Below, piece after piece: positions 13,981 through 14,414 of a DNA stretch of 64,000 nucleotides; positions within the stretch are counted from its first letter, which is position 1; each line of letters opens with the position of its first letter. The stretch is from Eledone cirrhosa. Taxonomy: Eukaryota. The stretch is taken from NCBI GenBank assembly GCA_964016885.1, contig OZ024751.1, positions 21,204,001-21,268,000 of the forward strand, in the 5' to 3' direction. Made by a program: the position numbers and the translations under genes. The notes under the pieces were generated by a model, which was not told the origin of the DNA, ran no database searches, and worked only from the letters and a program-made list of their open reading frames with translations.

Positions 13981-14160
13981 GTGAAAGAGTGAAGAATAAA
14001 ATGGTCGGCTGTACACAAATGGTTTTATTTACAGTATTAACAATTGTTTCATTGATCAGGTGAGTCCAAGGCCGCTAATCACTCGAAATTGCGTCACTCG
14101 ACCTTAAATACAGTGTGTGTCTCTGATCAAATCATCGGAATACTGGAGAGTGTAACACAT
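13980..14160 (-). mobile_element. PLE pLTR-like fragment carrying an HHR; homologous to 37531-37703 (+) and 13691-13743
   Basis: Alignable over ~170 bp in opposite orientation; ends at (TA)n. Confidence 0.7.
14032..14145 (-). ncRNA. Minimal hammerhead ribozyme with long stem II insertion
   Basis: Reverse complement: cagtatt CCGATGA t ttgatcag-(63 nt)-ctgatcaa t GAAA caattg TT aatactg; perfect 7-bp stem I and 8-bp stem II; U4C. Confidence 0.7.
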
Positions 14161-14414
14161 GGCATTGGTATTTATAGATACATCAGAGAATCAAGTGAAT
14201 TAAAGTAACTTTAAATATATATACAGTATATATATGTAGATAAATCTACCAATAGTGTCCAATCCGTATGAAGAACTCAATGTAATCCAAATATCATGAA
14301 AAGAGAAGATATATTCAAAAATTTTTTCGATGAAAATCACAGGAAAACAGAGTCAAGATAAATTAATAATAATAATAATGAATAAAAACAAAGAAACAGT
14401 TCCTTATATTAAAA

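What the first reader, a model, noticed from the sequence alone, without database searches (positions are those of the whole stretch)
14032..14145. Two diverged copies (14032- and 37531+) reconstruct an HHR with a ~65-nt stem II insertion
Seen: both copies keep stem II ttgatcag/ctgatcaa and GAAAcaattgT exactly, while the internal loop has diverged. Each has a different single core defect (CCGATGA versus CTGATGT; GUU versus GUC), so the consensus is canonical CUGAUGA...GAAAC-aauu-GUC with stem I cagtatt/aatactg. Inference: the ancestral element had a functional HHR with an unusually large loop II, which standard HHR searches would likely miss.
Basis: partly seen in the sequence, partly recalled or inferred. 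Interest (0 to 1): 0.7.

Follow-up and report, generated by a model that had tools for sequence, protein, structure and literature searches.

The report
Long-armed hammerhead of Hydra retrotransposons
The two copies are broken tail ends of a known kind of jumping gene, and thousands of copies in this animal genome carry the same hammerhead motif, a likely self-cutting RNA whose side arm is lengthened by a conserved stretch of about 64 bases that is predicted to fold into a hairpin; cutting is untested.

Summary
The motifs are real at both places. Both copies are 5'-truncated 3' ends of a Penelope-like retrotransposon with Hydra-clade protein motifs. The hammerhead with an ~80-nt spacer is abundant: 1012 canonical-core, 3611 U4C-type and 738 A9U-type exact matches, with controls of 0, 6 and 2. 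The youngest intact family also has U4C. The 'loop' is likely a hairpin that extends stem II: its helix stays 65-83% identical to the youngest family where silent sites are at 24-33%, and 4 of 4 double changes keep the pair. An R-scape-like test did not beat its null. An intron reading is unlikely. Hammerheads in these elements are known, with published loop II of 3-10 nt in Hydra and up to 35 nt in a plant element. This scan noted long stem II in Hydra-type hammerheads before, on other DNA. Verdict: new variant of a known kind; cleavage and the hairpin's job untested.

The parts
13979..14204 (-). Copy A: 5'-truncated 3' end (pLTR) of a Hydra-type Penelope-like retrotransposon, subfamily A, ending at a TA/TG repeat
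   Evidence: 91.7% over 229 nt to L114, which carries the endonuclease region upstream
14032..14145 (-). Type I minimal hammerhead of copy A (C4 variant, U10.1-U11.1, GUU site); predicted cut between 14039 and 14038
   Evidence: subfamily states
14123..14130 (-). Stem II base (P2a), 5' strand
14060..14122 (-). 63-nt extension of stem II: helix P2b (14111-14099 with 14074-14064, one bulged A), 5x5 internal loop, 3-bp P2c (14093-14091 with 14082-14080), 8-nt apical loop
   Evidence: alignment A1, pair counts, folds
14052..14059 (-). Stem II base (P2a), 3' strand
14039..14050 (-). Core box GAAA, 2-bp helix III with palindromic ACAAUUGU, and N17
   Evidence: self-duplex of 8 bp, -6.4 kcal/mol
37520..37706 (+). 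Copy B: 5'-truncated 3' end of the related subfamily B2, between TA repeats
   Evidence: 92.0% over 187 nt to L116
37540..37644 (+). Hammerhead core of copy B (U9 variant, GUC site); predicted cut between 37644 and 37645; the 5' arm of stem I carries one private change
37556..37623 (+). 68-nt extension of stem II (P2b 37567-37579 with 37608-37619; private 4-nt insertion in the apical loop)
13690..13914 (.). Neighbouring insertion of the same family: a short 3' end on minus (13690-13726) joined to a 3' end plus 'tail' on plus (13728-13914), the inverted layout typical of Penelope-like elements

Best explanation
Both copies are truncated 3' ends of a Penelope-like retrotransposon with Hydra-clade motifs, each carrying a minimal type I hammerhead motif whose stem II is likely extended by a conserved hairpin of about 64 nt, and in full elements this motif is predicted to cut the tandem transcript weakly, as a dimer and likely with help from the element's own protein. 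Shown: the host element; the place of the motif about 60 nt before the element's 3' end; the subfamily-fixed core variants; the selective constraint on the insert. Inferred: the fold (8-bp P2a, internal loop, 12-bp P2b with a bulged A, 5x5 loop, 3-bp P2c), dimer pairing through the palindromic helix III, and cleavage. Most likely job of the extension (inferred, about 50%): a rigid arm that holds the core in register and offers a binding surface for the element's RT-endonuclease protein or a host factor. That would explain why families with U4C or A9U kept spreading. The two window copies themselves are old, promoter-less remnants and are likely inert.
For: Host element: loci with the same motif have RT and a C-terminal endonuclease upstream. 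The related family Y has intact 794-aa ORFs between twin repeats about 3.5 kb apart, with 0-2 mismatches in 370 nt in 6 of 7 elements. Its protein has DKT, RWK, CxCx5C, CxxC and CxH, the Hydra features in PMC8557442 section 11. Of 184 3' ends, 97 run into a TA repeat and 73 into the tail. Core: C3, G5, A6, G8, G12, A13, A14, A15.1 and U16.1 are the majority state in all 13 subfamilies; only positions 4, 7, 9, 10.1, 11.1 and 17 vary. Constraint: over 134 between-group pairs, four-fold sites of the endonuclease are 48-50% identical and the upstream UTR 51%, against P2b 75%, internal loop plus P2c 73%, apical loop 55%, GAAAC-GUH 94%. For A, B or GHI against Y, silent sites are 24-33% and P2b 65-83%. 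Pairing: 89.6% of 404 cells paired and 40 double-change cells against 15.0 in shuffles, 0 of 500, and all slid controls at 28-44%. 180 of 195 subfamily-majority cells are standard pairs. In 11 independent tip pairs, 4 of 4 double changes keep the pair (background 0.32, p = 0.01); paired columns differ at 10%, unpaired at 21%; G-U 47 against A-C 10 favours this strand. RNAalifold alone recovers the inner P2b pairs and P2c. Precedent for protein-assisted cleavage: the Anolis Poseidon hammerhead (PMC11167929). Precedent for U4C working in vivo despite low activity: a viroid (PMC3088659).
Against: No cleavage or expression data. Mutual information with APC for the helix pairs (best 0.57) does not exceed a tree-based null (mean maximum 0.59). 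Three of the compensated pairs change on one branch. Single changes in the tip pairs mostly break the pair (16 of 22, no better than background). Whole-motif folding z-scores are weak (-0.5 to -1.7 in 10 of 10), and the insert folds better on the sense strand in only 16 of 25 rows. U4C and A9U are expected to lower activity, and family Y has lost the helix III palindrome (self-duplex -0.7 kcal/mol). Core counts are biased upward, because most loci were fetched with patterns or queries that contain core letters. The 55 nt downstream are as conserved (74%) as the helix, so constraint could act on the whole 3' end and not on the ribozyme. No tree with published Hydra references was built, and the unit is 3.5 kb, longer than the usual under 3 kb.
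Confidence: 0.78

Rival explanations
1. The ribozyme is vestigial in this lineage: the fold and the extended hairpin are kept only as a recognition or positioning signal at the element's 3' end, and cleavage no longer matters.
For: U4C, A9U and A17 spread in thousands of copies. The youngest family has U4C and a non-palindromic helix III. Catalytic mutants of the Anolis hammerhead did not affect insertion in vitro (PMC11167929).
Against: The residues tied to catalysis (G8, G12, the C3-G8 pair, G5, A6, A13, A14) stay fixed in all 13 subfamilies while silent sites saturate, and position 17 is never G. Part of this is built into how loci were picked.
Confidence: 0.25
2. The insert is a short spliceosomal intron of about 56 nt; splicing would leave a compact hammerhead with an 8-nt loop, so splicing would switch the ribozyme on.
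For: B-type copies read AG|GTAAAT at the start and CTCTAG|A at the end, a TRAY-like word lies about 30 nt before the AG, and the TAG is kept in most families. Penelope-like elements keep introns, and in D. virilis an intron ends at helix I (PMC4209133).
Against: The GT donor is missing in subfamilies A, G and H and lies inside the stem in others. The TAGAC word is explained by pairing with the equally conserved GUAUU. No genomic copy has the spliced junction (0 matches with up to 1 mismatch), though intron retention weakens this test.
Confidence: 0.06
3. One reading: one ancestral canonical hammerhead with a large unstructured loop II, whose copies each decayed by a private core mutation.
For: Canonical-core copies exist (8 of 35 in the B cluster read CTGATGA/GTC).
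Against: The variants are shared by hundreds to thousands of copies. The insert's helix is more conserved than stems I and II themselves (75% against 57-61%). U4C creates a CpG, so stray canonical copies inside C4 families may be deamination products (inference).
Confidence: 0.05

Closest known systems
Hydra clade of C-terminal EN+ Penelope-like elements and their hammerheads (Craig et al. 2021, PMC8557442; section 11, passages, File S1 Hydra sheet and File S2 read)
   Same: RT plus C-terminal endonuclease with DKT, RWK, CxCx5C, CxxC and CxH; (TA)n targets; tail and inverted layouts; a hammerhead near the 3' end with single bases flanking stem II; GUU, GUA and GUC sites all occur.
   Different: Loop 2 in the published Hydra table is 3-10 nt and all listed cores read CUGANGA. 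Here 81-83 nt separate the core boxes in the window's subfamilies, and U4C or A9U are common. The unit is about 3.5 kb against 2-3 kb.
Minimal hammerheads (min-HHR) of metazoan Penelope-like elements (Cervera and De la Pena 2014, PMC4209133; parts 1-2 of 4 read)
   Same: Type I, helix II longer than usual (7-8 bp), short helix I, an extra base between 9 and 10.1, tiny palindromic helix III, predicted dimer, low activity.
   Different: Helix II there ends in a short loop; here it continues for about 64 nt as a second conserved helix.
PLE-X1 hammerheads of Selaginella (File S2 of PMC8557442)
   Same: Penelope-like hammerheads with a long loop 2 (35 and 29 nt), marked as deviating from the canonical structure.
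   Different: About half the length, in endonuclease-less plant elements; the table gives no conserved structure for the loop.
Discontinuous Clec2 hammerhead of mammals (as summarised in PMC6155905, passages read)
   Same: A hammerhead that tolerates a large insertion in one arm.
   Different: Type III, insertion of 150-1500 nt in helix I, in a host mRNA, not in a retroelement.
Protein-assisted hammerhead of Anolis Poseidon PAc (Frangieh et al. 2024, PMC11167929; parts 1-2 of 4 read)
   Same: Penelope-like pLTR hammerhead; internal initiation explains the two 3' ends (with and without tail) seen here.
   Different: Other clade; no long stem II in the parts read; activity tested there and not here.

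Membership tests
Hydra-clade Penelope-like element | [quoted passage not shown] | tested here: met
   794-aa ORF with YRDD at 351 and a VY...YIG module after the linker, read by eye; A- and B-type motifs have the same endonuclease region upstream. Pfam named no RT or GIY-YIG family on 3 of 3 partial ORFs.
Hydra-clade Penelope-like element | DKT in place of DKG, and an RWK motif | tested here: met
   ADKT at 119 and RWK at 37 in the family Y protein; the A and B copies fetched do not reach this far
Hydra-clade Penelope-like element | CxCx5C linker; CxxC and CxH in the endonuclease | tested here: met
   CNCHLPDRC at 654, CGLC at 752, CRH at 780; same words in L111 and L114
Hydra-clade Penelope-like element | CCHH motif absent | not tested
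   no alignment with CCHH-bearing references was made
Hydra-clade Penelope-like element | Insertion into (TA)n; tail and inverted pLTR structures | tested here: met
   97 of 184 ends run into TA repeats, 73 into the tail, 14 other; inverted arms in L002, L014, L021, L030
Hydra-clade Penelope-like element | Generally under 3 kb | tested here: not met
   unit length 3497-3558 bp in 7 of 7 family Y elements; a tendency in the paper, not a strict criterion
Hydra-clade Penelope-like element | Phylogenetic placement with published Hydra proteins | not tested
   67 homologues at 30-41% identity, two named from a sea anemone; no named Hydra reference was put in a tree
Type I (minimal) hammerhead ribozyme | Core C3, G5, A6, G8, G12, A13, A14, A15.1, U16.1 and H17 | tested here: met
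   both window copies and the majority of all 13 subfamilies
Type I (minimal) hammerhead ribozyme | U4 and A9 | tested here: not met
   copy A has C4 and copy B has U9; both are met in subfamilies AB, D, E, F and in the B1 copies
Type I (minimal) hammerhead ribozyme | Three helices around the core | tested here: met
   stem I 72% of cells paired in one fixed register, P2a 89%, helix III 100%
Type I (minimal) hammerhead ribozyme | Palindromic helix III for dimer folding | tested here: met
   ACAAUUGU in both window copies, 8-bp self-duplex; not met in family Y
Type I (minimal) hammerhead ribozyme | Site-specific self-cleavage | not testable with these tools
   needs an in vitro assay or RNA end mapping
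Spliceosomal intron in loop II | Conserved GT donor and AG acceptor | tested here: not met
   acceptor-like TAG kept in most rows, donor GT missing in A, G and H
Spliceosomal intron in loop II | Spliced form exists | tested here: inconclusive
   0 genomic matches to the junction; Penelope-like elements retain introns, so this is weak

The most novel reading that the evidence does not exclude
The stem II extension is a dedicated RNA domain, a docking arm for the element's RT-endonuclease, that turns a minimal hammerhead into a protein-gated ribozyme. It lets cores with U4C or A9U cut only inside the element's own RNP. Rod-like extensions of 60-95 nt arose at least four times independently among the hammerheads of this genome, which would make stem II a hot spot for adding protein-binding domains.
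Probability: 0.25. Interest if true: 0.65.

Novelty: new variant of a known kind. Interest (0 to 1): 0.4.

Why it matters
What hammerheads do for Penelope-like elements is open: they cut weakly, and in the one tested element they need the protein and are dispensable for insertion in vitro. This lineage offers a natural series: intact young elements, canonical, U4C and A9U cores, and short-armed and long-armed relatives in one genome. It makes 'what the extra arm is for' and 'does cleavage matter' directly testable. It also shows that descriptor searches with short stem II limits miss at least about 5000 motifs in this genome. If the arm is only a passive extension, the finding is a modest variant of a known motif.

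Tried and rejected
Rfam: the whole-window search at E <= 1 gave 392 rows; the 150 shown hold no hammerhead and nearly all are microRNA-family matches to TA/TG microsatellites; 242 rows were not shown. At the gathering threshold, 0 matches in 6 loci, including 2 short-loop hammerheads, so the Rfam miss is not specific to the long arm. Expression: no RNA holder listed. Contigs of X1, X2 and X4, none on record as RNA, listed no joint that removes the insert, and one X4 contig retains it; contigs show presence, not absence, so this is not used as evidence. The first pattern for a short-loop form was swamped by an internal look-alike word and was replaced. Pfam named no RT or endonuclease family on 3 partial ORFs. 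tblastn and a profile found no coding part of this element in the window. SECIS and kink-turn readings of the internal loop were rejected by eye from recalled consensus: no 10-bp helix above the G-A pairs, the wrong GA order, and no in-frame stop in the 794-aa ORF. An antisense donor-like word (CAG|GTGAGT) lacks a conserved acceptor in subfamily A. Branch-by-branch counting of compensatory changes was not done, so phylogenetic independence rests on tip pairs and a simulated null. The endonuclease tree is poorly resolved (1 of 16 inner branches starred) and cannot say whether U4 or C4, or long or short stem II, came first. The lead that twin hairpins follow the two 3' ends was not confirmed by a quick fold in one element. 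Lunse et al. 2017 on Penelope-associated hammerhead variants is not held (title seen in a reference list only) and may already describe such cores or arms.

Full report
Observation. Copy A lies on the minus strand at 14145-14032 with core CCGATGA, an 8-bp stem II base, 63 nt between the arms, GAAACAATTGT and U at position 17. Copy B lies on the plus strand with core CTGATGT at 37540, the same stem, 68 nt between the arms and C at position 17. The window is microsatellite-rich animal DNA from a 3.0-Gb assembly.

It is a high-copy repeat. DNA searches gave 2243 and 2637 first-look candidates, of which 40 each were scored. A 26-mer shared by both copies has 1311 exact matches, control 0. Copies end about 60 nt after the predicted cut site. 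Of 184 such ends in the loci then held, 97 run into TA repeats, 73 into a further 'tail' and 14 into other sequence. Several loci show inverted arms.

The host element. Longer copies extend more than 2 kb upstream into RT and endonuclease coding sequence. A protein search led to a related family, Y, with intact 794-aa ORFs between twin repeats 3497-3558 bp apart; 6 of 7 elements have 0-2 mismatches in 370 nt between their repeats and one has 45 in an ungapped count. The protein has DKT, RWK, CxCx5C, CxxC and CxH, which PMC8557442 section 11 gives as Hydra features. Its 67 homologues are 30-41% identical. I did not test placement in a tree with named Hydra elements. The window holds no coding part of this element; both copies are truncated 3' ends. 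Mean pairwise distance is about 7% in subfamilies A and B and 2.8% in Y, so A and B are older.

The core variants. Exact patterns over the genome: CTGATGA-N60-90-GAAACAATTGTC 1012 (control 0); CCGAWGA-N60-90-GAAACAAWTGT 3611 (control 6); CTGATGT-N70-90-GAAACAATTGT 738 (control 2). By eye about nine in ten of the 100 rows listed belong to the lineage of the window copies; the rest are other long-armed lineages. In 30 loci picked by a word that excludes positions 4, 9 and 17, 6 lack the 5' core; of the other 24, 10 read CCGATGA/GUU, 3 read CTGATGT/GUC, 6 are fully canonical and 5 are single other variants. Among 157 copies in 13 subfamilies (from 183 copies found, with singletons and three 2-member clusters left out and 10 later loci added), C4 is found in 42 of 44 A copies and 11 of 11 Y copies, and U9 in 26 of 35 B copies; C3, G5, A6, G8, G12, A13, A14, A15.1 and U16.1 are the majority everywhere. 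These counts lean towards intact cores because of how loci were fetched. GUU is ordinary: several Hydra hammerheads in File S2 of PMC8557442 have it. U4C lowers activity in vitro but is tolerated by a viroid in vivo, and U10.1-U11.1 is the best tolerated mismatch (PMC3088659).

The insert. In 27 aligned copies, the two window copies and 25 subfamily representatives, the insert reads as a continuation of stem II: an internal loop, a 12-bp helix P2b with one bulged A, a 5x5 internal loop, a 3-bp helix P2c and an 8-nt apical loop. I derived this structure by eye from these sequences, which favours it over slid controls. Pair counts: 89.6% of 404 cells paired, 40 double-change cells against 15.0 in shuffles, 0 of 500. 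RNAalifold on its own returns 6 of these pairs. Subfamily majorities give 180 of 195 standard pairs, with double changes at 47-88, 49-86, 50-85 and 52-83 and a stepwise A-U, G-U, G-C series at 60-75. In 11 tip pairs on non-overlapping paths, 4 of 4 double changes keep the pair (p = 0.01), but only 6 of 22 single changes do, and mutual information does not beat a simulated null. The stronger evidence is constraint: over 134 between-group pairs among 18 elements, four-fold sites are 48-50% identical, the upstream UTR 51%, the apical loop 55%, stems I and P2a 57-61%, but P2b 75% and internal loop plus P2c 73% (which corrects the four-fold figure). Against family Y, silent sites fall to 24-33% while P2b stays at 65-83%. 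The 55 nt downstream of the motif are also 74% conserved.

How it likely works. Shown: position, family structure, constraint. Inferred from PMC4209133: the tiny palindromic helix III means two motifs in a tandem transcript pair to cut, weakly. Inferred from PMC11167929: cleavage may need the element's protein, and internal initiation of reverse transcription explains the two 3' ends. My inference: sequence conservation of P2b beyond what pairing needs, with a fixed bulged A and asymmetric loops, points to a protein-binding surface, most simply for the element's own protein. The main rival is that the fold is kept only as a 3' signal and no longer cuts. The intron reading looked good in subfamily B but fails on donor conservation, and no spliced genomic copy was found.

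Other lineages. The same GAAACAAUUGUH box serves short-armed families (11-12 and 20 nt between the core boxes; 1047 pattern matches, control 11) and at least three more long-armed lineages of 61-63, 67-82 and 79-95 nt that look unrelated in sequence; the 67-82-nt group folds at -23 to -33 kcal/mol in 6 of 7 rows. One short-armed locus of each kind and one 79-nt locus have Hydra-like coding sequence upstream. Whether the arms were gained independently is not shown.

What is known. Hammerheads in Penelope-like elements, and in Hydra in particular, are published. Loop 2 in the Hydra table is 3-10 nt, and two Selaginella elements have 29 and 35 nt. Nine full-text searches listed no paper whose title or abstract start describes a 60-nt structured stem II in such an element; 'long helix II' in PMC13725137 means 6 bp (passages). 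Papers seen: PMC4209133 parts 1-2 of 4; PMC8557442 outline, section 11, passages, supplement rows and part 2 of 59; PMC3088659 section 8 and passages; PMC11167929 parts 1-2 of 4; bioRxiv 10.64898/2026.07.22.740005 part 1 of 5, supplements not seen; PMC6765202, PMC6155905, PMC13725137 and PMC7229834 passages only. Lunse et al. 2017 could not be read and may bear on novelty. The roles of G8, G12 and A9 are recalled, apart from the C3-G8 data. Earlier notes of this scan report long stem II in Hydra-type hammerheads in this genome and in others; a search by this sequence found none. These notes are unchecked and are not counted as support.

Verdict. A real, abundant and constrained variant of a known motif in a known element class. 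Interest 0.4; new variant of a known kind.

Noticed in passing
window 13600-13631 (+): A short-armed hammerhead of another family (12 nt between the core boxes, GUU site), 400 bp from copy A; common in the genome. L257 links this type to Hydra-like coding sequence.
   Followed up: partly
window about 36700-36870: An inverted pair from another long-armed hammerhead lineage (62 nt between the core boxes, CTGAGGA core, GUA site).
   Followed up: partly
window 1131-1342 (+): Tail-only fragment of a related family ending in a TA repeat.
   Followed up: partly
L120 near 5100, L190, L273-L277: A lineage with a 67-82-nt rod-like stem II and canonical core, whose flanks resemble the 20-nt short-armed family; a candidate for an independent gain of the arm.
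   Followed up: partly
L151-L159: Young family Y with intact 794-aa ORFs and near-identical twin repeats has C4, A7, A17 and a non-palindromic helix III; the best candidate for biochemical work.
   Followed up: partly
55 nt downstream of the hammerhead in all families (window 13979-14031, minus): This stretch, from the AATAAA-like word to the 3' end, is 74% identical between groups, as conserved as the stem II helix; its role is unexplained.
   Followed up: no
alignment A1 columns 21 and 106: Positions 10.1 and 11.1 change together across subfamilies (U-U, G-U, G-C, A-A).
   Followed up: no
window 29258-32759: A 62-bp tandem array of 56.5 copies at 98% identity.
   Followed up: no
window 17894, 36954, 39976, 40392, 50647, 51236, 51611, 52056, 62784: Nine copies of a SINE-like repeat ending in ...GAAACAATTAT; not related to the hammerhead despite the shared word.
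   Followed up: no
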